Shown here in pieces: positions 5,055 to 60,798 of a stretch of DNA of 64,000 nucleotides. The notes beneath the pieces were generated by a model. It saw nothing but the letters and a program-made list of their open reading frames with translations, was not told the origin of the DNA and ran no database searches. The position numbers and the translations under genes were made by a program. Source of the stretch: an uncultured Pseudomonadales bacterium (lineage in GTDB: Bacteria; Pseudomonadota; Gammaproteobacteria; Pseudomonadales; Azotimanducaceae); assembly GCA_958296025.1 (NCBI GenBank), contig OY282430.1, positions 3,212,477 through 3,276,476 on the forward strand, written 5' to 3'. Positions within the stretch are counted from its first letter, which is position 1; the number at the start of each line of letters is the position of its first letter.

Positions 5055-5061
5055 GCACGGC

Positions 5062-5455: not shown

Positions 5456-5477
5456 TGCTGTAAGAGGCTGACTGGAC

Positions 5478-31881: not shown

Positions 31882-32840
31882 CGACGCTGCTGGAAACCCG
31901 CAACCTGACCAAGCACTTCGACCTCGGCCGCGGGCGGCGGGTCCATGCCGTGGACGGCCTAAGCCTCACCATTGACGAGCGGGAGATCGTCGGCTTGGTG
32001 GGCGAGAGCGGCTCCGGCAAATCCACTTTCGGCAAGGCCATCCTGGGCCTGCACGACAAGACCGCCGGGCTCGTCACCTTCAAGGGCGAGGAGTTGCCGG
32101 GCCGCTACCGGCAGCGGGACTTTCGCCGCTACGCGCCGCACATGCAGATGATCTTTCAGGACCCGTACTCATCCCTGAACCCGCGCATGACCGTGGGCGA
32201 AATCGTTGGCGAGGGGTTGAAGCTGCACTCCGACCTGTCCGGCCGGGAAGTCCGCGAGCGCAGCGCCGACTGGCTGCAACGGGTGGGCCTGGAGCCGGCG
32301 CACATGTCCCGCTATCCGCACGAGTTCTCCGGCGGCCAGCGGCAGCGCATCGGCGTCGCCCGGGCGCTGATCCTGGAGCCGGAGTTCGTGGTCTGCGACG
32401 AACCCATCTCCGCCTTGGACGTGTCCGTGCAAGCCCAGGTCATCAATCTGCTCGACGACCTGAAGGCGTCCCTCGGCCTCACCCTGCTGTTCATCGCCCA
32501 CGACCTTTCGATGGTGCGCTACGTCAGCGACCGCATGGCGGTGATGTACCTCGGCGCTCTAGTGGAGGTGGGCAAGGCCAACGACGTCTTCTTCGACCCG
32601 CAACACCCCTACACCCAATTCCTAGTCGCCGCCAACCCGGAGCCGGACCCCAGAACCGAACGCCGCCGCGCCTTCTCCGCCATCCAAGGCGAAATACCCT
32701 CCCCCATCAACGTCCCCCCCGGCTGCCGCTTCGCCAACCGCTGCCCCCAAGTCATGCCGCAGTGCCGGGAGCAGACGCCGCAATTGATTCCGTTGCAGGA
32801 GAAAGGCGGACGGGAGGTGGCCTGCCACTTGTTTGGGTAG
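31878..32840 (+). CDS. ABC transporter ATP-binding protein (OppF/DppF type)
   Basis: Walker A GESGSGKS, signature FSGGQRQR, Walker B VVCDEPISALD, C-terminal oligopeptide-type Cys motif. Confidence 0.9.
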   Translation: MTTLLETRNLTKHFDLGRGRRVHAVDGLSLTIDEREIVGLVGESGSGKSTFGKAILGLHDKTAGLVTFKGEELPGRYRQRDFRRYAPHMQMIFQDPYSSLNPRMTVGEIVGEGLKLHSDLSGREVRERSADWLQRVGLEPAHMSRYPHEFSGGQRQRIGVARALILEPEFVVCDEPISALDVSVQAQVINLLDDLKASLGLTLLFIAHDLSMVRYVSDRMAVMYLGALVEVGKANDVFFDPQHPYTQFLVAANPEPDPRTERRRAFSAIQGEIPSPINVPPGCRFANRCPQVMPQCREQTPQLIPLQEKGGREVACHLFG

Positions 32841-32892
32841 GGAGTAGTGTTGCGGAGACACTGACGGCTTCCGGCCAGCAACAAGGCTGATT

Positions 32893-33534
32893 TTGGTTGG
32901 AGGCAGCGGAGGGGAACCTGTCGCAGCCGTGCTGGTACCAACCCAGCGTAAGGGTTCAGGCATTGCGGAGGACCGATTGACAACAAAACCAACTTTGTCC
33001 ATTCATGACATGGAACAACGACACCACGGGCTGACAAAGGCCATCGCGGACATGTACACCGAAGCGGCGACCGTCTGCTTAGATCGGCATCATCAATCGC
33101 CAACGGATTTCAATTTGAACGGAAGTGGTGTGCGGTCCGAAGCGGCCGTGGAGTGGCGGCGATCCGATGCGCGAACCCGTGGTGCATGGGCGAACGAGAT
33201 CGACGCAACAGAGGCGGGCGCTTGTGCTTGCGCTCTCGCAGCGGTTGAACTCATTGATGGCCTAGTCGCCATTCACAGGGCGGAAACCAAAACCGGTGCC
33301 GACTACTACATCGCTCCCAAGGGCACACCTGCGGAGGACCTACAAAAGTGGTTGCGCTTTGAAGTTTCCGGCGTGGACAGCGGATCGGAAAGCACTGTCA
33401 AAAGACGCCTCAAAGACAAACTGACTCAAGCCGCAACAGGCAAAAGTGATCTCCCGGCGATGGCCGGCGTGGTAGGATTCAGAGCCAAGTTAATTCTGTT
33501 GGCCGATCTCCAAAACAGCCAGGCGAGCAACTGA
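32893..33534 (+). CDS. Hypothetical protein, possible degenerate PD-(D/E)XK-like fold
   Basis: ORF with TTG 32893 or ATG 33010 start. Contains EIDATEAGACACALAAVE ... TGADYYI ... LRFEVSGV (E / D / ExS spacing). 10 nt upstream of the next ORF. Confidence 0.5.
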   Translation: MVGGSGGEPVAAVLVPTQRKGSGIAEDRLTTKPTLSIHDMEQRHHGLTKAIADMYTEAATVCLDRHHQSPTDFNLNGSGVRSEAAVEWRRSDARTRGAWANEIDATEAGACACALAAVELIDGLVAIHRAETKTGADYYIAPKGTPAEDLQKWLRFEVSGVDSGSESTVKRRLKDKLTQAATGKSDLPAMAGVVGFRAKLILLADLQNSQASN

Positions 33535-33544
33535 GAACGGCGCT

Positions 33545-34660
33545 ATGACTTGGGTCGAGCACCATAAGATCAGCGAGCAGTTTGCCTCGCAAGCACAAGT
33601 TGCCGTGTGGGAAGGCCGACATACGGAAGCACTGCCCCTGTACGCCCTTGCTGCCGACGCCGAAAACAAAGCTCTTGCGGGTCTGGATACCTCCAAAGCC
33701 CGCACCATCGGCATAACCGCTGTGAGTGCGGCTGCTCTCTATTACAAAGCGGAAGACTTCACCCGAGCGGAAGAGATAGCGGGCTATTGGCTCGGGTTCG
33801 GTTTGCTCCCCGCCTTCGCCAAGGAGCAACTGCGCAGCTTGCTTCAATCCATCTGGTGCGAACAAGTTCGAACGCGAACGGACCCTAGGTTTGCGCCGGG
33901 CCAAGTTCTGATCTCCGTGAAGGGCGGGGAAGTCGTCCACGGCGGCGCCCCGCTTGACCTCATCGTGGATAAGGTAAAGATCGTCCAATCCATCCTGCAC
34001 AGAACCGCCGAGTTCATGAGCAACCTGACGCATCGCAAACGCGGCGGCCCAAGCAAGGACATACAGGAAATCTGCCGCCCGTGGCTATTTCAAACCGAAC
34101 CGGGCAGCTATCAATTCGCTGTCGCAATTCAAGAGAAGAAGCAACTCGAATTGCTCCGCGAACTACCTTCATCAAGAGGTATATCGGATTGCTTCTTGAA
34201 GATTCTTCGCGTAGGGATCGAAGATCCCGAACAACGTTTTGCGGAGATAGTTCCCGATCCTGACTACCGTAATACGTTTTTGAAGTTGACGCGAAACCTC
34301 GCTCCGCAAGGAGAAGTATGCAATAGCGTGGAACTTAAATCTCAGGAACAGACGCAAGCCATTAGGCTCGATTCCAAAGTCCGACATGACTTAGGAAAAG
34401 CCATTCGCAGCGCTAAGGAGAGGGAAACAGCACCAACAAGTCACCCTGAATCATTGCATGGAACACTTCGGGCGATCCATCTGGACAAGGATTGGCTTGA
34501 ACTCACTGTGGGGGAAAAACCTCTTCGCGTGGTTCAAGTCGGCGAACAAGTTGACGACGTGATTGGTCCCATGATTAACAAGCCAGTGATTGTCCATGTA
34601 TCCGTGGATGAAGACCAGTATAAGTTTCTGGACATCGAGCCGGATGAATCAAGTTGCTAA
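33545..34660 (+). CDS. Hypothetical protein (371 aa), helical N-terminus, no recognisable motif
   Basis: Long uninterrupted ORF in an AT-richer segment, co-oriented and nearly abutting 32893..33534. Confidence 0.55.
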   Translation: MTWVEHHKISEQFASQAQVAVWEGRHTEALPLYALAADAENKALAGLDTSKARTIGITAVSAAALYYKAEDFTRAEEIAGYWLGFGLLPAFAKEQLRSLLQSIWCEQVRTRTDPRFAPGQVLISVKGGEVVHGGAPLDLIVDKVKIVQSILHRTAEFMSNLTHRKRGGPSKDIQEICRPWLFQTEPGSYQFAVAIQEKKQLELLRELPSSRGISDCFLKILRVGIEDPEQRFAEIVPDPDYRNTFLKLTRNLAPQGEVCNSVELKSQEQTQAIRLDSKVRHDLGKAIRSAKERETAPTSHPESLHGTLRAIHLDKDWLELTVGEKPLRVVQVGEQVDDVIGPMINKPVIVHVSVDEDQYKFLDIEPDESSC

Positions 34661-34705: not shown

Positions 34706-34840
34706 ATGGCCAGCGACTACAACGCGATACCAATCGAGAACTAGCGTCGGGATGGAACCGACGTGGGTCGGTATGGAAAGAACCTGTTAACCGACCTCTA
34801 CGATGATAAAACTCACTTCATCCATGAGTTGCTTGAACGG
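34706..34840 (+). pseudogene. Fragment of a second sacsin-like GHKL gene (N-terminal ~45 codons, in-frame TAG)
   Basis: MASDYNAIPIEN*RRDGTDVGRYGKNLLTDLYDDKTHFIHELLE parallels the start of gene 35503 (MASDYKAIKANNERRYGTDVGRYGKRLLTDLYDDRTHFIYELLQ). Confidence 0.7.
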
Positions 34841-34949
34841 GCATGGCGGAGGACACAGCCGCGAACTGCAAATCTGGACCTTCACCGTCGCTCGTTTCCC
34901 GCTGCCCGGCTAAAGGTTGAGGTGCAAAGGAAGGGCGCCGTCAATGTGA

Positions 34950-35196
34950 GTTCGCCGATCTTGGCGCGCAGGTGGCGGATGGTGGCCTCGTGCTCGGCAC
35001 CCCGCTTGGCCCGGTTCTGGAGGGCGGCCTTGCCGCCTTCCAGAAAAAGCCGGCGCTAGTCCCGCACTTGGTTGGGGTGGATGCCGAGTCGGGCTGCCAC
35101 TGCGCTCAGCGTGTCCACCTCACCCATCGCGCCACGGACCACGCGAGCCTTGAAATCCGCCGTGCAACGGTGCCTTGTCGTGGTCTTTCCAGCCAT
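34950..35196 (-). mobile_element. IS3-family transposase OrfA remnant (HTH part only, in-frame TAG)
   Basis: Hand translation from ATG 35196 gives MAGKTTTRHRCTADFKARVVRGAMGEVDTLSAVAARLGIHPNQVRD*RRLFLEGGKAALQNRAKRG...RHLRAKIGELTL. No OrfB and no inverted repeats seen. Confidence 0.6.
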
Positions 35197-35296
35197 CTCA
35201 GGTCCTCCCGAATGGACGGAAAGTCTACCTTAAGCAGTTATCGCGAAAACCCAGACCACATCTATCACTTCTCAGCTTCAGGCATGCGGAGTTGCT

Positions 35297-35503
35297 GTGA
35301 AAGTAGCTCCCCGCATTCTAGAGGTGTTACCCTATCGCCCAGAGCGCGTGGATGCCGCCGGCCGCCACTTCGACGCGACGATGCGGCGCATCCAAGCTGG
35401 TGAGTTCGCCGTGGCGGTGCCACCGGAACCAGGCATTTGTGGGGAGTGCGATTTGCGGACGCTCTGCCGAGCCGAAGGCGTTATCCAGGAAGAGGCAGGC
35501 TGA
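35297..35503 (+). pseudogene. C-terminal fragment of a Cas4/AddB-type PD-(D/E)XK nuclease domain (Cys-cluster tail)
   Basis: ...IQAGEFAVAVPPEPGICGECDLRTLCRAEG is the typical C-terminal CxxC-x5-C tail of helicase-nuclease fusions. No upstream body is present. Its stop overlaps the start of the next gene (ATGA... tgATG at 35501-35505). Confidence 0.4.
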
Positions 35504-38500
35504 TGGCCAGCGATTACAAGGCAATAAAGGCTAACAACGAACGGCGTTACGGCACCGATGTCGGCCGCTACGGCAAGAGGTTGCTGACCGATCTCTACGA
35601 CGACCGAACGCACTTTATCTATGAGCTTCTGCAGAACGCGGAAGACGCCCTCCGTAGGCGTACCGAAAGTCCGCCTTCCCGTACTGTCAGATTTGACCTC
35701 TCGGAGTACGCGCTGCGTATTAGCCACCACGGCAAGCCTTTTGATCGAGGGGATGTGGAGGGAGTGTGCGGTATCGCGTTAGGAACGAAGCAAGAGGACG
35801 TTACTCAGATCGGTCGCTTCGGAATCGGCTTCAAGTCCGTGTATGGCTTCACCGAACGACCCGAGATCCACTCCGGCGACGAGGACTTCGGCATCGACAG
35901 CTTCGTTTGGCCGTCGGCCCAATCGGCCATCGAACGTGACCCAGACCAGACTGTCTTCATCATGCCGCTACGCAACCCTGATGTTGATGGTGAAGAAATC
36001 GCCAAAGGGCTTCGACGTATTAGCCTCGACACCCTGCTGTTTCTACGCGAGATCGACACCATAGAGTGGTCGATCCCAGACGGCGAATCCGGTACATATA
36101 TTCGGCAGTCAGTCCCCTGGGACAAGCACAAGCATGTCCGACGAGTGACGGTCATCGGAGTGTCCACCGACCACGACGACGTCGAGAGAGATTGGCTCGT
36201 ATTCTCGAGGCCTACATATGGGGCCGCTGATGTGCTCGCAGGGCATGTCGAAGTCGCATTCCTCATGAAGGATGAACGCATCGTACCTGTATCTCACTCG
36301 CCGCTGGTGGTGTTCTTCCCCACGGTGGTGGAGACTAATCTGGGCTTCCGAATCCAAGGTCCATATCGCACGACACCAAGTCGAGATAGCGTCCCCGAAG
36401 CCGACGAGTGGAACCAACAATGCGTGGAGAATACCGGTGACGTACTTGTAGATGCGCTCGTATGGCTGCGCGACCACGAAATGCTTGATGTGGACGTACT
36501 CCGATGCCTTCCCATCGACCAGCGCAAGTTCGATGACGAAAGCAGGTTCGCGCCGCTGTATGAGAGCGTAAAAGAAGCTTTCCGTTCCCAAGAGCTGCTG
36601 CCTATATTCGGTGGGGGGTACGCGACAGCGGCTGGCGTGAAGCTCGCCCGCACGCAAGAGCTTCGGGAGCTATTCGACCGCAAGCAGCTTGAGCGGTTGT
36701 TCAAGAGTAAACACTCCATATCGTGGCTGACTGATACCATCTCCCAAGATCGAACGCCCGATCTTCGGGCGTATCTTATGGAAGATCTGGGCGTCGATGA
36801 GATCACACCGCAGACAATACTTCGGAAACTCAATACTTCGTATCTCCAGCACCAGAGCAATGGGTGGATGTGTCGGCTCTATGAGTTCCTGAAAGGGCAA
36901 GCGGCATTGCACCGGCAGGCCAAGGATGTGCCAATCATTCGGCTGTCCGATGACACACATGTACCGGCCTTCGTCGGCGATGCACCACAGGCATTCCTGC
37001 CTGGACCAGTTAAGACAGAGTTTCCGACCGTTCATGAAGGGGCATGCCGGTCAGCGGACGCAAAGCAATTCCTCCGCATGATTTGCCTCTCGGAACCACA
37101 CCTCGTTGATGACGTGATACTGTACGTGCTGCCGAAGTATGGCGAGGAAAAACTCCATATATCCGACTCCGATTACGCCGCAGACATTGATCGCATCTTG
37201 GCCGCGTCGCAAACGAAGGAAATCGACAAGCGCGGAGAGTTGATACAGCGTCTCCGCCGGACTCGATTCGTCCGTGCGGTGAATGCCGGAGACGGTGCGA
37301 CGTTCTTTGCCTCACCGGACGGACTTTACTTGGCAACGGAGCGCCTCAAGGCGTTGTTTGCCGGCATCTCTGGCATCGAAATGGTGGATGACGGTTGTGA
37401 TGCGCTTCGGCGCGGCGGCATCAGGGATCTGCTTGAGTCCTGCGGGGCCGTTCGGCATTTGCTACCAAGCAAGAAAGAGTATAGGACGTTGAACAGTCCG
37501 CTGTCAGCGGAGTTCCTAGCGAAACTGCGGGGGCAAAGCGGCCATGCCGCGACTTCCGGTTACAGTGACACCGTTACTGACTGGGCTTTGCGCGGCCTTG
37601 ACGATGTGCTGGCGCAGCTACCCTCTCTTGATGCCGAAGATCAACGCAACAGAGCAAGGTGCATCTGGGAAGAGCTAATCCAATTGGAAGAGCAGCGAGG
37701 AAGGGCAGTATTCCGCAGCGAGTACCGTTGGACGCACTATGGCAGCCATAGGCAGGAGTTCGATTCGGCCTTTGTCCGACAGCTCAACGACAGCGCCTGG
37801 ATCCCCGATCAGGAAGGAGGATTGCGGCGGCCGGATATGGTACTGTTCGATTCCCTAGATTGGCGCGATGATCCGTTCCTGCTATCCAAAATTAGCTTCA
37901 AACGGCCAGTTGTTGAGGAGCTAGCAGCGGAGGCCGGTTTCGAGCCGGCGATGCTGGACAAACTGAAAGAGCTTGGCATAACAAGCATGGTGGAACTTGA
38001 GAAGCGAGGACTGCTGGAAGACCAGGCTGGTGCGACCGGAGATGTGAGCTTGGTCAAGGATGCAGTGAATGATCTGGGCACCAATCACGAGGGCGGTAGT
38101 GGTTCGTCAAACAGCCCGTATGATGGGCCTTCAAAGAGCAACAGCCATCCTAGATCGGAGTCTGGCGGATACACGCAGCAGAAGAGACACGGGGCTGCAC
38201 CCTTCATTTCCTATGTGGCGGTTGACCGGGAAGGCGGCACGGACGATCCTGACGGGGTGAATCACGAGGAGCGCATGGCGTTGGAGGAGGCCGCCATCAA
38301 GCGAATTCTGAACCGCGAGCCGGACTGGCAAAGGACATCCATGAACAATGAAGGATTCGATCTAGTCAAGGTTGCGGAGGGCCAGCCTGTTAGCTGGTGC
38401 GAGGTGAAATCCATGAAGGGCGACCTCGAAGGACGTCCCGTAGGGCTCTCCCGCGCACAGTTCGATTGCGCTCGCGAGTATGGTGATGCCTACTGGCTCT

Positions 38501-38619
38501 ATGTAGTGGAACGGGCGGACACTGAGGACGCTCGCATCGTCCGTATTCAGAACCCGGCTGGCAAGGCGCGAACCTTCACCTTCGACAAGGGCTGGCTTGC
38601 GGTGGCGGAGTGCGATTGA
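35503..38619 (+). CDS. Sacsin-like GHKL ATPase (HATPase_c_3 type) fused to a C-terminal DUF3883 restriction-endonuclease-like domain (1038 aa)
   Basis: N-box FIYELLQNAEDAL and GRFGIGFKSVY at the N-terminus. C-terminal EEAAIKRIL...EGFDLVKV...SWCEVKSMKG...YWLYVV matches the DUF3883 pattern with D...EVK. Confidence 0.8.
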   Translation: MASDYKAIKANNERRYGTDVGRYGKRLLTDLYDDRTHFIYELLQNAEDALRRRTESPPSRTVRFDLSEYALRISHHGKPFDRGDVEGVCGIALGTKQEDVTQIGRFGIGFKSVYGFTERPEIHSGDEDFGIDSFVWPSAQSAIERDPDQTVFIMPLRNPDVDGEEIAKGLRRISLDTLLFLREIDTIEWSIPDGESGTYIRQSVPWDKHKHVRRVTVIGVSTDHDDVERDWLVFSRPTYGAADVLAGHVEVAFLMKDERIVPVSHSPLVVFFPTVVETNLGFRIQGPYRTTPSRDSVPEADEWNQQCVENTGDVLVDALVWLRDHEMLDVDVLRCLPIDQRKFDDESRFAPLYESVKEAFRSQELLPIFGGGYATAAGVKLARTQELRELFDRKQLERLFKSKHSISWLTDTISQDRTPDLRAYLMEDLGVDEITPQTILRKLNTSYLQHQSNGWMCRLYEFLKGQAALHRQAKDVPIIRLSDDTHVPAFVGDAPQAFLPGPVKTEFPTVHEGACRSADAKQFLRMICLSEPHLVDDVILYVLPKYGEEKLHISDSDYAADIDRILAASQTKEIDKRGELIQRLRRTRFVRAVNAGDGATFFASPDGLYLATERLKALFAGISGIEMVDDGCDALRRGGIRDLLESCGAVRHLLPSKKEYRTLNSPLSAEFLAKLRGQSGHAATSGYSDTVTDWALRGLDDVLAQLPSLDAEDQRNRARCIWEELIQLEEQRGRAVFRSEYRWTHYGSHRQEFDSAFVRQLNDSAWIPDQEGGLRRPDMVLFDSLDWRDDPFLLSKISFKRPVVEELAAEAGFEPAMLDKLKELGITSMVELEKRGLLEDQAGATGDVSLVKDAVNDLGTNHEGGSGSSNSPYDGPSKSNSHPRSESGGYTQQKRHGAAPFISYVAVDREGGTDDPDGVNHEERMALEEAAIKRILNREPDWQRTSMNNEGFDLVKVAEGQPVSWCEVKSMKGDLEGRPVGLSRAQFDCAREYGDAYWLYVVERADTEDARIVRIQNPAGKARTFTFDKGWLAVAECD

Positions 38620-40124
38620 CGATGGTAGTTGCCGCATCCGACATCGACATCATGATCCAGCAGGGCGAGGGCACCACGCTGGAGTTCAAGGAGGCCCTCT
38701 CGGCTGGCTTTGCTCGGGAATTGGTGGCGTTGGCGAACACCATTGGGGGCCGGATACTGCTTGGCGTGGCCGACGATGGCACGGTGAAGGGCGTCAAGGA
38801 CACCAACGCTCTGCGTGCTCGCATTCAGGACATCGCCCGTAATTGCGATCCTTCGGTGAAGGTGCTGGTAGAGCCGGTGGACGGGGTGCTCGCGGTCCAT
38901 GTGCGGGAAAGCGATGCCAAGCCGGTGCAGTGCAGCGACGGCTTCTTCTGGCGTCAGGGCGCGGTGACGCAGAAGCTCAGCCGTGATGAAATCCGGGATT
39001 TCTTCCGCGAGGAAGGGGTGATCCGGTTCGATCTTTCGCCCTGCCCCCGCTTCAGCTACCCGGAAGATTTCGACCGCGACAAGTTCGACGCCTGGCTGCG
39101 GCTATCCGGCATCACCAATAGCCCGTCGGTGGAGGATGTGCTGGTCAACATCGAGGTAGCCGAGCGGGCCGGCGACCGCTTGCTGTTCCGCAACGTCGGA
39201 GTGCTTTTCTTCGCTAAGAAGGTGCGCCGCTTCTTCTCGGAAGCCTACATTACCTGCCTGCTTGGCAGGGGCACGGACAAGGTGCATATCCTGGACCGCA
39301 AGGACTTCGACGGCGGCATCGTGGCGGACATTGAAGACGCCATGCGCTTCATCGAGCGCAACACCCGCACCGCTTACCGCATCGAGAGCCTGAGACGGCA
39401 GAACATACCGGAGTACCCGATGGAAGCGCTACGCGAGGCGATCACCAACGCCGTGATGCACCGCGACTGGTTTCTCCAAGGTGCCAACGTCTTCGTCGAA
39501 CTGTACGCCGACCGCATTGAGGTGATCAGTCCGGGCAGCCTGCCGAAGGGCGTGACCTTGGCCGATCTGGGCCACAAGAGCCTGCGGCGCAACCCGCTCG
39601 TCGCCGACCTGCTGCATCGCATCGACTTCATCGAGAAGGCGGGCACCGGCATCCGGCGCATCCGTGACGGCGCCAAGGCCGTGGACTGCCCTGAACCAGA
39701 GTTCGAGGCCGACAGCTTTGTCACGGTGACCTTCCGGCCTAACCCGGAGGTGCGACAAGCCGCTGGGGGAGAACTGCTAGCCACCCCCGAAGTCACTGGC
39801 CAAGTCACCCCGGAAGTCACCGACCAAGTCACCGGGCAAGTCACCGGGCAAGTCACCGACCAAGTCACCGGGCAAGTCACCGGGCAAGTCGCCCCGGAAG
39901 TCCGACTGCTACGGGTATTATCTGGTGAAATGACCAGGCAGGATATCCAGGAAGCCCTTGGCCTGAAACATCGGGACCACTTCAACCAAGCCTATCTGCT
40001 CCCCGCTCTTCAGGGTGGCCTGATCGAAATGACCATCCCGGACAAGCCGCGCAGCAGCAAGCAGCGATACCGTCTGACGCCCGCGGGAAGCGAATACCTG
40101 AAACGAATCGAAGAGGGACAGTAG
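38610..40124 (+). CDS. Schlafen/AlbA_2 domain protein with HATPase_c_4 (RecG-C-like) and C-terminal wHTH
   Basis: QGEGTTLEFKEALS...LANTIGGRILLGVADDGTVKGV (AlbA_2); EALREAITNAVMHRDW...IEVISPGSLP...IEKAGTGIRRI; tail MTIPDKPRSSKQRYRLT. The start is 38610 (10-nt overlap) or 38622. Confidence 0.85.
   Translation: MRLTMVVAASDIDIMIQQGEGTTLEFKEALSAGFARELVALANTIGGRILLGVADDGTVKGVKDTNALRARIQDIARNCDPSVKVLVEPVDGVLAVHVRESDAKPVQCSDGFFWRQGAVTQKLSRDEIRDFFREEGVIRFDLSPCPRFSYPEDFDRDKFDAWLRLSGITNSPSVEDVLVNIEVAERAGDRLLFRNVGVLFFAKKVRRFFSEAYITCLLGRGTDKVHILDRKDFDGGIVADIEDAMRFIERNTRTAYRIESLRRQNIPEYPMEALREAITNAVMHRDWFLQGANVFVELYADRIEVISPGSLPKGVTLADLGHKSLRRNPLVADLLHRIDFIEKAGTGIRRIRDGAKAVDCPEPEFEADSFVTVTFRPNPEVRQAAGGELLATPEVTGQVTPEVTDQVTGQVTGQVTDQVTGQVTGQVAPEVRLLRVLSGEMTRQDIQEALGLKHRDHFNQAYLLPALQGGLIEMTIPDKPRSSKQRYRLTPAGSEYLKRIEEGQ
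39789..39905. repeat. In-frame 12-nt tandem repeat (caagtcaccggg-like, about 9-10 units)
   Basis: Encodes EVTGQVTPEVTDQVTGQVTGQVTDQVTGQVTGQVAPEV within the AlbA_2 gene. Confidence 0.9.
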
Positions 40125-40310
40125 ATGCCGAAGATCGACATCACGAAGACCGAATTGGTCTGGCCCGGCAAGTACGACGAGGACGGGGCCTTGCGTGAAG
40201 CGCCCAGAGCAAGCTTACCGTTCCAAGTGATTGAGACGGTGAACGAAAGCCGCGCCACTCGTGACGCTACGCGGCCTAATAAAATGTCGCCTCCTTTGCC
40301 ATGGACTTGA
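40125..40310 (+). pseudogene. N-terminal stub of a Mod-type (type III-like) DNA methyltransferase
   Basis: MPKIDITKTELVWPGKYDEDGALREAPRASLPFQVIETVNESRATRDA is the conserved N-terminus of COG2189-type methylases. The reading frame ends after 61 codons with no catalytic domain. Confidence 0.6.
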
Positions 40311-40388: not shown

Positions 40389-41522
40389 TCAGCCGGCATG
40401 GGCCGCGATATAGGCCATCAGGCTAGGGATGCCCGGCCGCCACAGGTCTTCCTCGTTCGGCGAGTTCCAGACATAGCCCAATTCGGCTAAGCCGTCACGA
40501 TGCTCATCCACATTCTGGGCGGACGCATCGGCCGGCAAGGCCGCGGCGATGGCAGCGTCAAGTTCATGCTCCCTGAGCTGTCGCCTGGCGTCGAAGGCCC
40601 CAGCCAGTTGCGCCGCCGTGCGGAGCAGCCCCAAACGCTTCAACTCCTCGCGCCGATCGTCGTAGTAGGCTGACCGCTCCATGTCGAAGCGCGGTTTCGC
40701 CTTGGCAACCAAGGCTTCATCGATCCGGGTTGCCCCGCTTTCGTGCGCCATCACCCACAGGGCCGCGCCCCAAAGTTGCAGGAAATAGGGGTAACACTGA
40801 CTTTCCCCAACCACTTGCCGCAAAGCGCCACTGTCGAAGGAGATCGGCGGTTTTTGCTCCGCCAGCGGCTGCGCCAACGCTTGGGCGGACGCCACCTCGT
40901 CAAGCAAGCCGATTCCCAGCTTTTGACCCCGGCTCCAAAAAGTGGCCGACATGCCGTTCAAGTGCGTCTGCAACCCAGGGGTGCCGGCCATGACGAGCAT
41001 AAACGGCGCTTCGGCGCTAACCGACTGGCTGGCGTTGAGCAGGACTTGACCCACATCCTCCCTCAGCGTATGGGCTTCGTCGAGCAGCAAAACCAGAGGT
41101 CGCCGCTGGCAGCGCACAGCCAACAACCGGGTTAAGGAGCTAGGACGGTTGCCTAGCTTCCAGCCAAGCCGCCCGATGCCGATGGCGAAGGACAGGGCAG
41201 CCGGGCGCAACGAGTTGAATCGACTAGGCGGCGCCAATAGAGTGGCCAACTCGTCGAGACTCGGTATTTCAGCGGGCGTTAGCCAAACCACGTCCACCTT
41301 TTGCTTCGCCGCCTCGAGTTGATGTTGGAACCAACGCAGCAGGGCTGTTTTGCCGTTGCCTCGGGGGCCGGACAAAACCAAGTTTCGGGGTGCGCCTTTG
41401 CCGGCCTTTAGGTAAGCCAGCAAGGCGTTCAATGCGCTTTGCTCGGTGCCCCTGCCGGCCAAACAGGGCGGTAATTGACCGTGGCCCGGCACAAACGGAT
41501 TGACGGCGGATGATGCGCTCAT
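40389..41522 (-). CDS. ORC/Cdc6-like AAA ATPase (ATPase_2-type)
   Basis: FVPGHGQLPPCLAGRGTEQ..., Walker A LSGPRGNGKTALL, Walker B LVLLLDEAH, YPYFLQLWG lid motif. Confidence 0.75.
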   Translation of the reverse strand: MSASSAVNPFVPGHGQLPPCLAGRGTEQSALNALLAYLKAGKGAPRNLVLSGPRGNGKTALLRWFQHQLEAAKQKVDVVWLTPAEIPSLDELATLLAPPSRFNSLRPAALSFAIGIGRLGWKLGNRPSSLTRLLAVRCQRRPLVLLLDEAHTLREDVGQVLLNASQSVSAEAPFMLVMAGTPGLQTHLNGMSATFWSRGQKLGIGLLDEVASAQALAQPLAEQKPPISFDSGALRQVVGESQCYPYFLQLWGAALWVMAHESGATRIDEALVAKAKPRFDMERSAYYDDRREELKRLGLLRTAAQLAGAFDARRQLREHELDAAIAAALPADASAQNVDEHRDGLAELGYVWNSPNEEDLWRPGIPSLMAYIAAHAG

Positions 41523-41845
41523 GCCTTGAGAATAGCAGACAAGTCCCTTGGCTGGTTATTTCCACTAAAGCCGTCGACAATCTCCTATGCCCCCGGTCAG
41601 CCGAAGGGAGACCCCTTGGAAAGGGATGGAGACCTTGCCGGGCCGACTACTCTACTCCACCAATTGTCCGCCGAAGCCGACCCGCCCCTTGGCATCTGGC
41701 GCGTAGAGCACATGCACGTTCTCGCACGGACGCTTAAGTGTTCGCGGGTTCGCTGTTGAACAAATCACCCAGTTCGTCGGCGATAACCTGCAACAGCTCC
41801 CGGCGCGGCGGCCCGCCGTCGGCAGCGCTTGCGACAAGTTCAATG

Positions 41846-41995
41846 TCAATGATTGGCATGTCGTTCGTCGAACTGATCGAAATAGTAGGTGTTGCCGTCC
41901 GTGTCGCGAAACATGGACATGAATCCGCCCCAGGGCTGTCTCTCGGGCAGCATGGAAAACTCGACGCCCCGCAGCAAGTACCGGAAAACCTTGCT
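41846..41995 (-). pseudogene. C-terminal fragment of a VOC/glyoxalase-family protein
   Basis: Hand translation gives ...LRGVEFSMLPERQPWGGFMSMFRDTDGNTYYFDQFDERHANH*. Only ~50 codons, with no plausible full-length start. Confidence 0.4.
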
Positions 41996-57879: not shown

Positions 57880-58530
57880 ATGACCTTGAAAAAGCTACTG
57901 GCCAATTTGCTGCTTGCCACCGTGCTGCCGGCTTTAGGCCATGCTCAAACCGTGGACATTTGCGGCAGAACGCCGCAAGTGCGCGACGCCATCATGGGGG
58001 ACCTTGGCGCGGAAGACTGCGCCGCCGTGGATTCCGCACAGATGGCCGAATTGCGACTATTTATATTTAGTCGAAACAGGTTGACGGCCTTGCCGGCGGG
58101 CGTGTCCGAAGGCCTGACCAACTTGAACACACTGGAGTTGACGAACAACCGCCTTGTGGGATCGAGCCGGAATGACCCATTGTTTGCCATGCTTCCCAGC
58201 GAGGTTGACTCGGAATCGGAGTGGCAAACCGAAGAGCCGGATGGGCTAGAACCTCCGGCAACACGCCTTGCCAACACCGGGGCGAACGCCGCAAGCGTGA
58301 GCACTGAAGGTGTCGACGGCCAAGGCAACACCGCCGGGCCGGTCACCTTGACGCTGGCCGCCCCAGCCAAGCGGAAAACGACCCTTCCGCCCCTCCCGGA
58401 ATCCGCCCTCGCCCGACTTCCCGGGTCCCAAAAACACAGGATCGAACGCAACAGCTTCGCCAGCAAACGACTCTATAATCACCCCGGCGATCCCATACAT
58501 TCAATTGACTTGAATGCGAAACTCACCTAG
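57880..58530 (+). CDS. Secreted protein with two leucine-rich repeats and a low-complexity C-terminus
   Basis: GGAGA RBS, signal peptide MTLKKLLANLLLATVLPALGHA, LRR units NRLTALPAGVSEGLTNLNTLELTNNRL. Confidence 0.55.
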   Translation: MTLKKLLANLLLATVLPALGHAQTVDICGRTPQVRDAIMGDLGAEDCAAVDSAQMAELRLFIFSRNRLTALPAGVSEGLTNLNTLELTNNRLVGSSRNDPLFAMLPSEVDSESEWQTEEPDGLEPPATRLANTGANAASVSTEGVDGQGNTAGPVTLTLAAPAKRKTTLPPLPESALARLPGSQKHRIERNSFASKRLYNHPGDPIHSIDLNAKLT

Positions 58531-58577
58531 AGTCCACCAGTGCGCCATTTTCCAACCAGCTTGCAAGGAGGCCGCTA

Positions 58578-59933
58578 ATGTCTTCGACCCATACGACAGC
58601 GACGAAAACCCTAAAAAGGCATTTTCTTATACCCATGTGTTGCGTATTTCTTCTCGCTGCATGTGTTGAAAATCCCGAAATCAAATCTGCAAGGGCCAGC
58701 TTGGAGCTTGCAGAAATGAAGGGTGATCTTGACGGCATGTTTCTGTCACTACGGCAGCTAGTAGAACTTGGTGATGAAGCAGCAGCAAATAGCTTGCCTT
58801 TGGTGCGCACAGCCATTGCAGAGCGCGAACGCATGCTTCAATCCCTCGCCGACCACGACCACGAAGGAGCAATCCAGGCAGCAGAGGAGCTGTTGAATAT
58901 AGTTCCGAAGCATAAAGAGGGTCTAAAGGTTCTTCGGGAGTCTGGGCAGATATTTTTCTACCTTAGAGAAGCGAAGCACCTCGTGGTCTCGATCTTTGAT
59001 CAAAGCAATTCTCAAGCAGTTACTATAGAGCCCTTAATGGTTGATGAGTCGCTGCCTGAGGAACAACGTCATGCTTTTATTGTAACGACAATCCAGACGC
59101 TTCTCGAAGAATTGGGCTACTACCACGGCGAAGTCGACGGTGTGGCGGGCCCCGATACGGAAAATGCGCTTGAAGCCTTCCAAAAGGAGCAAAATGAGGA
59201 GGAGACTTTCGACCTTTCTGTGGAAACTGCAAACATGCTGAAGTCCGAACATAGGAAGAGGGAGATGGAAGATAAGGATATCGAAAAGCGGTTTTACGCC
59301 TTTTCTCGTTCACGCAAACTCGTTGACTTAGCAAAAAAACTTGATCCAAACTTCCCGAACGCTATCGAATTTGGAGAGATTATTGACCGTGGACATTCGA
59401 GCCTAGTGTATATAGAGGCTCAAAGGATTATAGCGAAAGGTGCCTTGATGATGGTGAAGGCTGAAATGGTCCATTCCTTAATATCATCGACTCTAGGCAT
59501 CGCTGCTTCTTCTCCTTACGGATCTGTCCAAGATACTTGGAGAAGAATTTCTCCACTTGTTGATGAAATAAGGCAGCCACTAAAGATGGACAAGGAAAAA
59601 TTGGACAATGGTCTGGCTCTTCTCTCCACTTACGAGTCTGGTAGATCCCTTGAATTTGTATCAAATCTCAAGGAATACGTCGTGACAGTCCATGTAGCGA
59701 CAATGGCCTTTTTGGAGCCAAGTGGAAGTCTGGTCGACTTTCGACAAGCAGCAAGCGACGCTACTAGCGAGTATTCACGCGTCAGTGCTAGACTCAATGG
59801 GTCCATGCCTAGTGAAACTCAGATACAGGAGGACTATGAAGGTCTAGCCGCGATCCTTAGTAACCACGCAGTAGTTTCTGACCCGAGAACTGACCAAATC
59901 ATCGCTCGCCATGAAGGGCTTTATACTCTGTGA
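58578..59933 (+). CDS. Lipoprotein with a peptidoglycan-binding (PG_binding_1-like) domain
   Basis: Lipobox VFLLAAC; IQTLLEELGYYHGEVDGVAGPDTENALEAFQ. AT-rich codon usage unlike the core genes. Confidence 0.6.
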   Translation: MSSTHTTATKTLKRHFLIPMCCVFLLAACVENPEIKSARASLELAEMKGDLDGMFLSLRQLVELGDEAAANSLPLVRTAIAERERMLQSLADHDHEGAIQAAEELLNIVPKHKEGLKVLRESGQIFFYLREAKHLVVSIFDQSNSQAVTIEPLMVDESLPEEQRHAFIVTTIQTLLEELGYYHGEVDGVAGPDTENALEAFQKEQNEEETFDLSVETANMLKSEHRKREMEDKDIEKRFYAFSRSRKLVDLAKKLDPNFPNAIEFGEIIDRGHSSLVYIEAQRIIAKGALMMVKAEMVHSLISSTLGIAASSPYGSVQDTWRRISPLVDEIRQPLKMDKEKLDNGLALLSTYESGRSLEFVSNLKEYVVTVHVATMAFLEPSGSLVDFRQAASDATSEYSRVSARLNGSMPSETQIQEDYEGLAAILSNHAVVSDPRTDQIIARHEGLYTL

Positions 59934-59988
59934 GGAATTTTGCAAAATCCTTCTACTTCCGTGGAGTGCGAAGAGGGCGAGAGGTCGT

Positions 59989-60306
59989 ATGAAGGCTAAG
60001 GCATGGAATAACGGAAGATGGTATCCAACCGGAGCAGGGTATGGTATCAAGATATCTGCTGCGGATCGTGATAGGTATTTTCGCCGATGTTGGCCTAACG
60101 TGGACATTGAGCTGCCAAACGGCAACCAAGTCACAGTTAATACCAGTAAGAGGTCCTTCTGGGACGGAACATGCAGGGAGCTAATTCACAAGGATATTGG
60201 TCGATGGTTGATCGATAGCGGTAGAGCCCGATGGCTCCCTGGAAGTTCGCCGGAGTTTCAACTGGTTCCTATGCAAATGAGATGCTTTGTTTTAAAAATG
60301 GGCTAA
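59989..60306 (+). CDS. Small hypothetical protein (105 aa)
   Basis: MKAKAWNNGRWYPTGAGYGIKISAADRDRYF...SFWDGTCRELIHKDIGRWL. Pattern recalled from conserved hypothetical proteins. No function known to me. Confidence 0.45.
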   Translation: MKAKAWNNGRWYPTGAGYGIKISAADRDRYFRRCWPNVDIELPNGNQVTVNTSKRSFWDGTCRELIHKDIGRWLIDSGRARWLPGSSPEFQLVPMQMRCFVLKMG

Positions 60307-60343
60307 AAGCTAGTGTTCTGTTCCATAAATAACTAATATAACT

Positions 60344-60547
60344 ATGAGCGTGTTTAATCCAGAGAATACGCTTATGTCTCGCGATCGATCCACTGTTCCG
60401 ATTGTCCTCGACAATGACGAAAAACACGAATTGCTCGGTATCGTACGCTCCCGCTCACTGCCTCACGCAGTCTTGCGGAAGCGCTTCTGGCAACCAACCA
60501 CATTCTCGCTGGGCAAATTGCCGGCATCGAATTCGAGCAACATGTGA
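60344..60547 (+). pseudogene. Possible IS630-type transposase N-terminal (HTH) fragment
   Basis: PIVLDNDEKHELLGIVRSRSLPHA resembles the start of IS630-family transposases. Similarity is lost afterwards. Confidence 0.3.
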
Positions 60548-60798
60548 GGAACCTAACCAATGCGAAATCGAAAGATTCACTGGGATGGCTGGTTTACCAT
60601 AAGTTGCCCGATATCATTCGGGTACGCTGTTCGGGTCAGAATCAAAGTGAGGAAATTATCAAAAAGTGCAAGATGGCGCACGACGTCCGAAATCAAGCGA
60701 TTCATTTGGATCCTGTGCCAGAAGCGGAGGCCGTCGGGCAGCTACTCGAAGCCATGAAGCTGGTTGGACGGATGAGAATACCTATATCCCAACGGTAA
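60460..60798 (+). pseudogene. HEPN/DUF4145-like remnant (Rx4H motif), 5' end lost
   Basis: In the frame of ORF 60544..60798: ...AEALLATNHILAGQIAGIEFEQHVRNL...CKMAHDVRNQAIHLDP...AVGQLLEAMKLV. The RNQAIH motif fits the HEPN Rx4-6H signature. Only a GTG start at 60544. Confidence 0.3.

What the first reader, a model, noticed from the sequence alone, without database searches (positions are those of the whole stretch)
35503..40124. Overlapping gene pair: sacsin-like GHKL ATPase-DUF3883 giant protein plus Schlafen/AlbA_2-HATPase_c_4 protein
The 1038-aa protein combines a GHKL ATPase head (ELLQNAEDA, GRFGIGFKSVY) with a C-terminal restriction-endonuclease-like DUF3883 domain (GFDLV...WCEVKS). That is an ATP-driven sensor plus a nuclease-fold effector in one chain.

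Its stop overlaps, or lies 2 nt before, the start of an AlbA_2 (Schlafen-type) protein. That protein is in turn followed without a gap by the stub of a Mod methylase.

A degenerate second copy of the GHKL gene's 5' end lies at 34706 in another gene context, so this gene behaves as a mobile module. GHKL (MORC/paraMORC-type) ATPases and Schlafen-like domains are known components of conflict systems. As far as I know, this specific pair has not been characterised as a defence system.
Basis: partly seen in the sequence, partly recalled or inferred. Interest (0 to 1): 0.75.

Follow-up and report, generated by a model that had tools for sequence, protein, structure and literature searches.

The report
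Remnant of a phage-defence island
The two genes are real and intact, but each belongs to an already described family of bacterial anti-virus genes (a Tiamat-like ATP-driven nuclease and a bacterial Schlafen), and here they are what is left of a larger seven-gene defence island rather than a new two-gene system.

Summary
An intact 1038-aa ORF (35503-38619) has a sacsin/Hsp90-type GHKL head and a C-terminal DUF3883/NOV_C nuclease. Two nt later comes an intact 500-aa AlbA_2/HATPase_c_4/wHTH ORF (38622-40124), then a 50-codon type III Mod stub. A decayed 5' copy lies at 34706.

- The big protein hits all nine PADLOC TmtA (Tiamat) profiles (best 4.5e-67, partial coverage). It is a short, distinct subfamily of a known single-gene defence family.
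- The second protein has the commonest prokaryotic Schlafen architecture ('pSlfn-HisKinase-HTH', 'Schlatpase'). Its Ex4ExK nuclease motif is intact.
- The pairing is not general. AlbA_2 lies next to the GHKL gene in 2 of 80 species-representative genomes, and each gene also occurs alone.
- The recurrent partners are a UvrD/PD-(D/E)XK helicase-nuclease, a type III Mod and a Res: all three in 28 of 84 loci.
- The closest relatives carry RadC-UvrD/PDDEXK-GHKL-(Schlafen)-Mod-Res-PIN. In the window UvrD is cut to 61 codons beside an IS3 remnant, Mod to 50 codons, and Res is gone.

Most likely these are two autonomous defence modules surviving in a decayed island. Three other reduced loci also keep both genes, so a functional pair is not excluded. 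Interest is moderate.

The parts
34706..34882 (+). Pseudogene fragment: the 5' end of a second, diverged GHKL-DUF3883 paralogue. It has an in-frame TAG at codon 13. Clear DNA homology ends near 34835.
   Evidence: tblastn matches residues 1-66 at 63.6% identity.
34910..35278 (-). IS3-family transposase OrfA remnant. Its ATG is at 35197 on the minus strand and it has an in-frame stop. It lies between the pseudogene fragment and the UvrD remnant.
   Evidence: NCBIfam transpos_IS3 2.8e-11 on the conceptual translation with the stop replaced. The sequence was read. The outer end near 35278 is my reading of the sequence (inference).
35318..35503 (+). 3' remnant (last 61 codons) of a UvrD-helicase/PD-(D/E)XK nuclease gene. 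Its TGA overlaps the ATG of the next gene.
   Evidence: 83.6% identity to residues 892-952 of the 952-aa UvrD/PDDEXK_1 protein of L081. Pfam PDDEXK_1 C-terminus, 9.5e-4. The same stretch lies directly upstream of the GHKL gene in 15 of 80 loci.
35503..38619 (+). Intact 1038-aa TmtA-like protein, in four parts: a sacsin/Hsp90-type GHKL ATPase with its beta-rich domain (about residues 1-290); a middle region of about 540 aa with no known fold relative (about 300-835); a low-confidence linker (836-914); and a DUF3883/NOV_C PD-(D/E)XK nuclease (about 916-1038).
   Evidence: dN/dS is 0.23-0.27 against four relatives.
38622..40124 (+). Intact 500-aa prokaryotic Schlafen with three domains: AlbA_2 nuclease domain (E16-x4-E21-x-K23), HATPase_c_4 GHKL domain and Fic-like_C winged helix.
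   Evidence: dN/dS is 0.13-0.19.
39790..39890 (+). 12-nt tandem repeat, 8.4 copies. It encodes the (T[G/D]QV)n linker between the HATPase_c_4 domain and the winged helix. Its length varies among relatives.
   Evidence: Tandem Repeats Finder. Alignment of seven relatives.
40125..40274 (+). 5' stub (50 codons) of a type III Mod methyltransferase gene. The ORF runs on out of homology to 40310.
   Evidence: PADLOC MTase_III 2.6e-6. 74% identity to residues 1-50 of the L081 Mod. Nucleotide homology to L081 ends at 40267.
40389..41522 (-). Convergent 377-aa AAA_16/AAA_22 P-loop ATPase at the right-hand deletion junction. Its relation to the pair is unknown.
   Evidence: Pfam. No PADLOC hit. No homologue in any related locus.

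Best explanation
The locus is the decayed core of a composite anti-phage island, and two autonomous single-gene defence modules survive in it.

Gene 1 (35503-38619) is a short-form relative of TmtA of the Tiamat system.
- Shown: an N-terminal sacsin/Hsp90-type GHKL ATPase; a conserved but fast-evolving middle region of about 540 aa with no known fold relative; a low-confidence linker; a C-terminal DUF3883 PD-(D/E)XK nuclease. All catalytic residues are kept.
- Inferred mechanism: ATP binding closes or dimerises the GHKL heads, as in Hsp90, MutL and the GHKL-nuclease Shedu protein VcSduA. The variable middle region senses the invader. The tethered nuclease then cuts DNA.

Gene 2 (38622-40124) is a stand-alone prokaryotic Schlafen.
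- Shown: AlbA_2 nuclease domain with an intact E-x4-E-x-K motif, a HATPase_c_4 GHKL domain and a winged helix.
- Inferred mechanism, by analogy with Schlafen-Argonaute: ATP-driven oligomerisation assembles an active tRNA-cleaving nuclease that stops translation in infected cells.

In the closest relatives both genes sit inside RadC - UvrD/PD-(D/E)XK helicase-nuclease - GHKL-DUF3883 - Schlafen - type III Mod - Res - PIN. In the window an IS3-associated deletion removed RadC and nearly all of UvrD. A second deletion removed Mod after codon 50 together with Res and PIN. The close spacing of the pair reflects shared descent in that operon, not an obligate partnership.
For: Identity of gene 1:
- SACS + NOV_C; P_loop_sacsin.
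- Nine TmtA profiles hit, from 4.5e-67 down to 2.5e-10. The N-terminal about 780 residues and the C-terminal 180 residues are both matched.
- Best solved relatives are the sacsin SR1 domain and Hsp90.
- Invariant N-box, G-box and E-D-ExK residues.

Identity of gene 2:
- Three Pfam domains.
- Ex4ExK conserved in seven relatives.
- The architecture is described as pSlfn-HisKinase-HTH (19.2% of prokaryotic Schlafens) and as 'Schlatpase'.

Island:
- Intact seven-gene operons in L005, L081, L082 and L087. L084 and L085 carry the same operon without a Schlafen gene between GHKL and Mod.
- Window 35323-40267 is 85% identical in DNA to L081 9821-14779 and homology stops there.
- UvrD and Mod are reduced to 61 and 50 codons, and there is no Res, RadC or PIN anywhere in the window.
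- IS3 remnant at the left junction.

Autonomy:
- The GHKL gene lacks an AlbA_2 neighbour in 78 of 80 species-representative loci.
- It has none of UvrD, Mod or Res within four genes in 36 of 84 loci.
- AlbA_2 homologues of 76% and 90% identity stand alone in L089 and L091.
- Synonymous divergence differs between the two genes: against L086, dS is 0.91 for GHKL and 0.31 for AlbA_2. This indicates separate recombination histories.

Both genes are under purifying selection (dN/dS 0.23-0.27 and 0.13-0.19) while their flanks are wrecked.
Against: - The 2-nt spacing with a GGAG upstream is conserved in relatives that carry both genes (gaps of 2-8 nt). This is what a co-translated pair looks like.
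- At least three further loci (L083, L086, L088) have lost UvrD, Mod and Res, with different boundaries, yet keep GHKL next to AlbA_2. That could mean selection for the pair.
- The TmtA profile matches are partial: at most 53% of any profile, with bit scores near 200. Membership of Tiamat proper is therefore not secured.
- No promoter-like site was found upstream, so expression after loss of the operon's 5' part is unproven.
- HisKinase-type Schlafen fusions tested in E. coli gave no protection in the one published screen.
- No activity of either protein was or could be tested here.
Confidence: 0.62

Rival explanations
1. The two genes form a genuine two-gene defence module. The Tiamat-like ATPase-nuclease might act as sensor or first line and the Schlafen tRNase as effector or abortive-infection back-up, or the two proteins might form a complex. 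That module is selectable on its own once the R-M part is lost.
For: - Conserved 2-8 nt spacing in the window, L005, L081, L082, L083, L086 and L087.
- Four reduced loci with different deletion boundaries keep both genes: the window, L083, L086 and L088.
- AlbA_2 relatives of this subfamily recur beside sacsin-type GHKL proteins, including a 1489-aa GHKL-helicase fusion in L090.
- Both genes are under purifying selection.
Against: - Only 2 of 80 species-representative loci have the pair.
- Close island relatives L084 and L085 have no Schlafen between GHKL and Mod.
- AlbA_2 stands alone in L089 and L091, the latter at the same chromosomal hotspot.
- In L088 the GHKL gene is split into two ORFs while the AlbA_2 gene is whole.
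- dS differs threefold between the two genes against L086.
- In L086 the loss of Mod-Res is explained mechanically by recombination between two AlbA_2 copies, without invoking selection.
Confidence: 0.2
2. The genes are inert relics. The operon lost its promoter-proximal part and its R-M partner, so the two ORFs are no longer expressed or useful and have simply not yet accumulated disabling mutations.
For: - Both flanking genes are destroyed, and an IS remnant and a pseudogene copy lie immediately upstream.
- No sigma-70-like promoter was found upstream.
- About half of the relatives sit in operons with UvrD, Mod and Res, so the GHKL protein may depend on them.
Against: - There are 4.6 kb of uninterrupted reading frame with every invariant catalytic residue kept, while the neighbours are reduced to stubs.
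- dN/dS is well below 1. This averages over the whole divergence, not only the time since the decay.
- Similar reduced loci recur in other genomes.
- Tiamat-type genes are treated as single-gene systems.
Confidence: 0.12
3. The AlbA_2/HATPase_c_4/wHTH protein is a DNA-binding regulator of the island, as older annotations imply ('transcriptional regulator', 'RecG-like'), rather than an effector. The GHKL-DUF3883 protein would then be the only defence enzyme.
For: - C-terminal winged helix (Fic-like_C, 2.1e-26).
- Its position just upstream of Mod in the intact islands.
- The published HisKinase-type Schlafens gave no protection in a screen.
- Sources name relatives 'ATP-dependent DNA helicase RecG' or 'ATP-binding protein'.
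Against: - The Schlafen catalytic motif E-x4-E-x-K is intact and conserved.
- The same Schlafen + GHKL supradomain is an ATP-gated tRNase in Schlafen-Argonaute.
- The gene persists alone, with nothing nearby to regulate, in L089 and L091.
Confidence: 0.06

Closest known systems
Tiamat (TmtA), single-gene anti-phage system (Millman et al. 2022, cited from memory; listed)
   Same: The window protein is homologous to all nine PADLOC TmtA profiles, over both the N-terminal GHKL + middle part and the C-terminal PD-(D/E)XK nuclease. It is one large polypeptide found in defence islands, and the mechanism of the family is unknown.
   Different: - It is 1038 aa, against 1063-1782 profile positions.
- No profile is covered by more than 53%, and bit scores are near 200.
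- The subfamily sits within four genes of UvrD/PDDEXK, type III Mod and Res in about a third to a half of loci, whereas Tiamat is defined as one gene.
Shedu type I-D / paraMORC3 (VcSduA of Vibrio cholerae), PMC12137116
   Same: A GHKL ATPase at the N-terminus and a PD-(D/E)XK nuclease at the C-terminus of one chain. Defence needs both the ATPase glutamate and the nuclease lysine. This is the best experimental precedent for the proposed mechanism.
   Different: - The nuclease domain is DUF4263, not DUF3883.
- The GHKL domain is of a different family.
- VcSduA is much shorter.
- There was no Shedu hit in PADLOC.
HmaA of the Hma system (Snf2 helicase + NOV_C), PMC11232893
   Same: It has the same C-terminal NOV_C/DUF3883 nuclease domain, which that study proposed HmaA relies on to block T4 infection.
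   Different: The motor is an Snf2 helicase rather than a GHKL ATPase. No Hma profile was hit.
Prokaryotic MORC/paraMORC GHKL ATPases in R-M operons (Iyer, Abhiman and Aravind 2008, PMC2292703)
   Same: The same theme: a GHKL ATPase, sometimes with its own restriction-fold nuclease, encoded with methylases, SF2 helicases and nucleases. The proposed analogy is to MutL-UvrD.
   Different: The head here is sacsin/Hsp90-type, not MORC-type. The sacsin-type family and the UvrD/PDDEXK partner are not among the families described there ('sacsin' occurs 0 times in the text).
Prokaryotic Schlafens: pSlfn-HisKinase-HTH (PMC13056530) and the 'Schlatpase' supradomain of Schlafen-Argonaute (bioRxiv 10.64898/2026.05.29.728809)
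   Same: - The same AlbA_2 + PF13749 GHKL + C-terminal HTH architecture.
- The same Ex4(E/D)xK motif.
- Residence in defence islands and by R-M operons.
   Different: - No Argonaute, DUF262 or Ig-like sensor is present.
- The stand-alone HisKinase form has no demonstrated phage protection yet.
- There is a length-variable tetrapeptide repeat linker.
Eukaryotic sacsin and plant NO VEIN
   Same: The GHKL head is closest to the sacsin SR1 domain (3.3e-12). The C-terminal domain is the Pfam family named after NO VEIN.
   Different: These are eukaryotic proteins with chaperone and developmental roles. The homology is at domain level only and no functional equivalence is implied.

Membership tests
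Tiamat (TmtA) | Significant match to TmtA profile HMMs | tested here: met
   Nine PADLOC TmtA profiles are hit, from 4.5e-67 to 2.5e-10. The same holds for relatives L005, L041 and L051.
Tiamat (TmtA) | Full-length collinear match to a TmtA profile, as expected of a member of one of the defining clusters | tested here: not met
   The best coverage is residues 19-779 against profile positions 59-851 of 1486 (53%). The C-terminal nuclease matches a different profile (1323-1505 of 1563). Bit scores are about 150-225 for a 1038-aa protein. The tool thresholds of PADLOC and DefenseFinder could not be applied here.
Tiamat (TmtA) | One polypeptide with an N-terminal ATPase and a C-terminal PD-(D/E)XK nuclease | tested here: met
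   SACS + NOV_C. Tiamat is listed among single-gene PD-(D/E)XK systems.
Tiamat (TmtA) | Acts as a single gene, with no conserved partner | tested here: inconclusive
   36 of 84 loci have none of UvrD, Mod or Res within four genes. 45 have UvrD/PDDEXK, and 28 have UvrD, Mod and Res together.
Tiamat (TmtA) | Protects against phage | not testable with these tools
   This needs plaque assays.
GHKL (Bergerat-fold) ATPases, sacsin/Hsp90 branch | N-box E-x3-N-x2-D and glycine-rich ATP-lid motifs | tested here: met
   E41, N45, D48, G104, G107, G109 and K111 are invariant in 31 sequences.
GHKL (Bergerat-fold) ATPases, sacsin/Hsp90 branch | Sequence and fold similarity to solved GHKL domains | tested here: met
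   Sacsin SR1 3.3e-12 and Hsp90 N-domains about 1e-6 by profile. Foldseek gives Hsp90 3e-9, TRAP1, sacsin and GyrB.
MORC / paraMORC | MORC-type GHKL + S5 module (Pfam HATPase_c_3 and MORC signatures) | tested here: not met
   There was no MORC or HATPase_c_3 hit in Pfam or NCBIfam. The best relatives are sacsin and Hsp90.
PD-(D/E)XK nucleases, NOV_C/DUF3883 | Pfam match above the gathering score, and E...D...ExK catalytic residues | tested here: met
   NOV_C scores 35.7 bits against 22.1. E928, D953, E967 and K969 are invariant.
Prokaryotic Schlafen (pSlfn-HisKinase-HTH / Schlatpase) | AlbA_2 domain with the Ex4(E/D)xK motif | tested here: met
   SLFN_AlbA_2 scores 66 bits against 25.3. E16-GTTL-E21-F-K23 is conserved in seven relatives.
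Prokaryotic Schlafen (pSlfn-HisKinase-HTH / Schlatpase) | PF13749 GHKL domain and C-terminal HTH | tested here: met
   HATPase_c_4 scores 80.2 bits and Fic-like_C 92 bits. PDB relatives are 3lmm and 4rgl.
Prokaryotic Schlafen (pSlfn-HisKinase-HTH / Schlatpase) | ATP-dependent tRNA cleavage | not testable with these tools
   This is a biochemical assay.
Type III restriction-modification system | Intact Mod and Res genes | tested here: not met
   Only Mod codons 1-50 remain, and there is no Res homologue anywhere in the window. Relatives have 608-730 aa Mod and about 950 aa Res proteins.

The most novel reading that the evidence does not exclude
The sacsin-type GHKL-DUF3883 subfamily is not a solitary 'Tiamat' gene. 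It would be the ATP-driven nuclease subunit of an undescribed composite system that couples a type III-like Mod/Res pair to a UvrD/PD-(D/E)XK helicase-nuclease, a MutL-UvrD-like module grafted onto restriction-modification. Together with the stand-alone Schlafen it would form a two-tier core (DNA cutting plus tRNA-cleaving abortive infection) that stays functional and is selectively kept when the R-M part is lost, as in this window.
Probability: 0.2. Interest if true: 0.65.

Novelty: new variant of a known kind. Interest (0 to 1): 0.4.

Why it matters
Tiamat is a validated defence system with no known mechanism. Stand-alone Schlafen-GHKL proteins are the commonest but least understood bacterial Schlafens.

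This locus and its relatives offer three things:
- a compact (about 1040 aa) TmtA-like subfamily with clear catalytic motifs;
- a well-modelled middle region of about 540 aa with no known fold relative, which evolves faster than any neighbouring gene and is therefore a candidate invader sensor;
- natural 'deletion series' (full island, GHKL + Schlafen, Schlafen alone) at one chromosomal hotspot.

The frequent linkage to UvrD/PDDEXK, Mod and Res suggests a testable hypothesis: these ATPase-nucleases work with methylation-based self-marking and a helicase-nuclease, much as MutL works with UvrD.

For the window itself the practical message is more modest. It holds two known kinds of defence genes in a broken island.

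Tried and rejected
- Host contig of the window protein. The exact-sequence look-up of P0001 found nothing on record, so I used relatives instead.
- Text of the Millman preprint. It does not contain 'Tiamat' or any domain description. What I say about the original validation of Tiamat rests on memory plus the secondary mentions. No mechanistic Tiamat paper is in the library.
- MORC/paraMORC assignment. Rejected, because the head is sacsin/Hsp90-type.
- Hma, Shedu, DISARM, BREX, MADS and Gabija. No PADLOC hit of the GHKL protein to any of them. The mad3/mad8 hits of the neighbouring ABC-transporter ATPase are generic P-loop matches.
- Promoter and terminator scan of 32.8-41.8 kb. Fewer promoter-like sites than in shuffles, so uninformative.
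- Fold search of the middle region alone (model pLDDT 86.7). No PDB match better than E = 0.11.
- The 213-aa and 371-aa ORFs upstream (32893-34660) and the AAA_16 ATPase downstream. No Pfam, NCBIfam or PADLOC family for the first two, and no homologues in any of 91 related loci. I could not tie them to the pair.
- 'Recent duplication' for the 34706 copy. Rejected on roughly 70% DNA identity.
- The ~1500-aa relatives (L042, L048). I tested whether they are canonical TmtA. They also match the profiles only over their N-terminal ~780 residues, so they do not calibrate membership.

Full report
**1. The observation**

The window has about 64% G+C, dipping to 52-60% between 33 and 39 kb. On the + strand an ATG at 35503 opens a 1038-codon frame that ends with TGA at 38617-38619.
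- Two bases later, ATG 38622 opens a 500-codon frame that ends with TAG at 40122-40124. A GGAG lies 11 nt upstream of that ATG.
- A GTG at 38610 is an alternative start. Relatives all begin at the ATG, and the 500-aa product is the one on record in public collections.
- ATG 40125 follows the TAG directly and opens a 61-codon ORF.

**2. Gene 1**

Family and fold assignments:
- Pfam gives a sacsin domain (residues 31-127, 6.2e-14) and NOV_C/DUF3883 (934-1011, 9.4e-9), both above the curated cut-offs.
- NCBIfam gives 'sacsin N-terminal ATP-binding-like domain' (1.9e-23).
- A profile of 31 family members finds the sacsin SR1 crystal structures (3.3e-12) and then Hsp90 N-domains. It finds nothing MORC-like and no solved close relative.

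Structure prediction:
- An AlphaFold2 model (mean pLDDT 78.9) has four parts: a GHKL head with a beta-rich domain; a long helical/mixed middle; a low-confidence linker (836-914); and an alpha/beta nuclease domain.
- Foldseek against the PDB returns Hsp90, TRAP1, sacsin and GyrB.
- The middle 536 residues modelled on their own are confident (pLDDT 86.7) but have no PDB match better than E = 0.11.

Conservation: in the 31-sequence alignment the ATP-binding residues (E41, N45, D48, G104, G107, G109, K111) and the nuclease residues (E928, D953, E967, K969) are invariant.

Relation to Tiamat:
- PADLOC's library matches only TmtA, the protein of the Tiamat system, with all nine of its profiles. The best is 4.5e-67. 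One profile aligns residues 19-779 and another aligns the C-terminal 861-1037.
- Tiamat is listed in the literature as a single-gene PD-(D/E)XK system of unknown mechanism. Its original experimental validation (Millman et al. 2022) I cite from memory, because the preprint text held here does not name it.
- The matches are partial: at most 53% of a profile, with bit scores of about 150-225. Relatives from other phyla behave the same way.
- I therefore call the protein TmtA-like, a short and distinct subfamily, rather than a proven Tiamat member.

**3. Gene 2**

- Pfam gives SLFN_AlbA_2, HATPase_c_4 and Fic-like_C, a winged helix.
- The N-terminus reads E16-GTTL-E21-F-K23, which fits the Schlafen catalytic motif Ex4(E/D)xK. 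The motif is conserved in seven relatives.
- The architecture is the second most frequent among 5,930 prokaryotic Schlafens ('HisKinase-HTH', 19.2%). Schlafens with other fusions protect E. coli from phages by cutting tRNA, but the HisKinase fusions tested gave no protection in that screen.
- A 2026 preprint names the AlbA_2 + PF13749 combination 'Schlatpase'. It finds the combination in 58.6% of prokaryotic Schlafen proteins, mostly small proteins with or without a C-terminal HTH, and shows examples in operons with type I R-M. [quoted passage not shown] That fusion also explains the PADLOC 'pAgo' hit of gene 2.
- The linker before the winged helix is encoded by a 12-nt tandem repeat (39790-39890, 8.4 copies), and its length differs in every relative.

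**4. The neighbourhood in relatives**

I collected 80 loci from species-representative genomes with up to 10-kb flanks. I added eleven more loci around the nearest protein relatives of either gene.

Intact islands:
- The nearest relatives of the GHKL gene are L081 (about 80-82% identity), L082 (76-78%), and L005 and L087 (about 60-62%).
- They carry a co-directional, abutting operon: RadC-like JAB protein; UvrD-helicase/PDDEXK_1 nuclease (about 950-980 aa); GHKL-DUF3883; AlbA_2 Schlafen; type III Mod; ResIII helicase (949 aa). A PIN protein follows in L081 and L082.
- L084 and L085 (65-72% identity) have the same operon with no Schlafen between GHKL and Mod. In L084 a 288-aa 3' fragment of the Schlafen gene lies after PIN.

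Counts across 84 loci with a called GHKL ORF, within four genes:

| Neighbour | Loci |
|---|---|
| UvrD/PDDEXK | 45 |
| Mod | 38 |
| Res | 31 |
| all three | 28 |
| AlbA_2 | 6 (only 2 from the unbiased 80) |

- Without the five loci I picked on purpose, I derive about 41, 34, 27 and 24 of 79 for the first four rows (my subtraction).
- The 28 complete sets fall into two main layouts: UvrD-GHKL-Mod-Res on one strand (13 loci), or Res-Mod-UvrD divergent from GHKL (12 loci).
- In the divergent layout the Res carries a TnsA-like endonuclease domain.
- Other contexts are an SNF2 helicase directly downstream (Chloroflexota), HerA-like ATPases and ABC-3C components.
- Distances among UvrD, Mod and Res are tightly correlated (Spearman 0.72-0.88). 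Those of the GHKL protein are less so (0.41-0.52).

**5. What happened in the window**

- Nucleotide homology to L081 runs from 35323 to 40267 (85% over 5 kb) and stops at both ends.
- On the left, only the last 61 codons of the UvrD/PDDEXK gene remain (83.6% identical to L081 residues 892-952). Their TGA overlaps the GHKL ATG.
- Immediately upstream lies an IS3-family OrfA remnant on the minus strand with an internal stop.
- Beyond that lies the 5' end of another GHKL-DUF3883 gene: 63.6% amino-acid identity over 66 residues, roughly 70% DNA identity, and TAG at codon 13.
- On the right, Mod stops matching after codon 50, and a convergent AAA_16 ATPase gene follows.
- No RadC, Res or PIN homologue exists anywhere in the 64 kb.
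- So the window holds the surviving middle of the island. The '34706 copy' is the wreck of a different paralogue at the same hotspot, not evidence that the present gene has moved.

**6. Is the pair a unit?**

For:
- The 2-8 nt spacing is conserved.
- Three other loci (L083, L086, L088) have also lost UvrD, Mod and Res, with different boundaries, yet keep GHKL next to the Schlafen.
- A 77%-identical Schlafen sits beside a different sacsin-type GHKL protein, one fused to a helicase, in an island with RadC, Mod, Res and PIN (L090).

Against:
- The pair is rare in the family (2 of 80).
- The GHKL gene is usually without a Schlafen. The Schlafen stands alone in L089 and L091.
- L091 is the same chromosomal hotspot as three other arrangements. 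All lie between a 249-aa ORF and a 191-aa ORF next to a 3-hydroxyacyl-CoA dehydrogenase gene. L086 holds GHKL + Schlafen there, L087 and L005 the full island, and L084 the island without an in-slot Schlafen.
- In L087 a second, 234-aa Schlafen 3' fragment lies after Res. It is 97% identical to the C-terminus of the L086 Schlafen, so recombination between the two copies would delete Mod-Res and give the L086 arrangement with no need for selection.
- Within the clade, UvrD (87-95%), Res (74-95%), RadC (78-90%) and the Schlafen (80-94%) are much more conserved than the GHKL protein (53-82%) and Mod (63-77%).
- Synonymous divergence differs between the two genes (against L086, 0.91 versus 0.31) and even within the GHKL gene. 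Against L005/L087 the stretch 36563-38190 has no blastn match while both ends are 84-91% identical. The genes therefore have mosaic, partly separate histories.

Both genes are under purifying selection: dN/dS is 0.23-0.27 for GHKL and 0.13-0.19 for the Schlafen.

**7. Mechanism**

Shown:
- intact and conserved ATPase and nuclease motifs in both proteins;
- Hsp90-like fold of the head;
- a fast-evolving middle region, least conserved at residues 661-750 and in the linker at 841-900;
- operon context with a helicase-nuclease and a type III R-M in many relatives.

Inferred:
- Gene 1 is an ATP-gated DNA nuclease whose variable middle senses the invader. The precedents are VcSduA, a GHKL + PD-(D/E)XK Shedu protein that needs both activities; HmaA, whose NOV_C nuclease domain was proposed to be what blocks T4; and the MutL-UvrD analogy proposed for GHKL ATPases in R-M operons.
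- Gene 2 is an ATP-dependent oligomerising tRNase that causes abortive infection.
- In the window, without Mod or Res, any activity of gene 1 must be independent of that methylation system.

**8. Verdict**

The finding is real and lies in a defence context. It is not a new two-gene system.
- It consists of a new, short variant of the Tiamat-type ATPase-nuclease and an ordinary member of the commonest bacterial Schlafen class, left over from a decayed seven-gene island.
- The more interesting lead lies outside the window: the frequent, multi-phylum linkage of this GHKL-DUF3883 subfamily to UvrD/PDDEXK + Mod + Res. I did not find this linkage described in the papers searched.
- Interest is 0.4.

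Noticed in passing
window 595-9820: There is a second defence cluster about 25 kb upstream. It holds an 821-aa AAA_16 + TrmB + TPR protein (595-3060, +) and a type I R-M system: N6_Mtase HsdM (3043-4590, -), a 502-aa ORF that is probably HsdS (5478-6986, -; not scanned), and a ResIII/EcoEI_R_C HsdR (6983-9820, -). G+C falls to 46-50% at 1-3 kb.
   Followed up: partly
window 39790-39890, and relatives L005, L081-L083, L086, L087: A 12-nt tandem repeat (8.4 copies) encodes a (T[G/D]QV)n or (ATPE)n linker between the GHKL domain and the winged helix of the Schlafen. Copy number and unit differ in every relative, which suggests slippage-driven length variation.
   Followed up: partly
L084, L086, L087, L005, L091 (between a 249-aa ORF and a 191-aa ORF next to a 3-hydroxyacyl-CoA dehydrogenase gene): One chromosomal hotspot holds, in different genomes, the Schlafen alone, GHKL + Schlafen, or the full RadC-UvrD-GHKL-(Schlafen)-Mod-Res(-PIN) island. 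Truncated 3' Schlafen copies (234 and 288 aa) lie after Res or PIN in L087 and L084. They could act as recombination arms that delete or swap Mod-Res.
   Followed up: partly
L001-L087, 28 loci: UvrD/PDDEXK_1 helicase-nuclease, type III-like Mod and Res form a tightly co-varying trio (Spearman 0.72-0.88) next to GHKL-DUF3883, in two fixed layouts across many phyla. I found no named system for this four-gene set in PADLOC or in the papers searched.
   Followed up: partly
L090 4281-8750: A 1489-aa protein combines a faint sacsin-type GHKL match with a DEAD/ResIII helicase. It lies directly upstream of a 77%-identical Schlafen, in an island that also has NTP_transf_2, RadC, Mod, Res and PIN. This is a different way of joining the same parts.
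   Followed up: no
L051, L061, L066, L073, L079, L080 (Chloroflexota): In these loci the GHKL-DUF3883 gene is followed directly by an SNF2/Helicase_C protein of about 1000 aa instead of Mod and Res.
   Followed up: partly
window 32893-34660: Two co-directional ORFs (213 and 371 aa) in the lowest-G+C part of the island (52-58%) end 46 nt before the pseudogene copy at 34706. They have no Pfam, NCBIfam or PADLOC family and no homologue in 91 related loci. They may be the former partners of the destroyed paralogue.
   Followed up: partly
window 41637-41970 and 32738-32842, against L081 5402-5897 and 6353-6458: Short stretches flanking the window's island on both sides are 79-90% identical to DNA that lies together on the left side of the island in L081. 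This points to a rearrangement or a shared insertion-site sequence.
   Followed up: no
window 58000-61000: Another low-G+C stretch (46-55%) holds a 451-aa protein with peptidoglycan-binding domains and a weak LRR-like 230-aa ORF. It may be another horizontally acquired segment.
   Followed up: no
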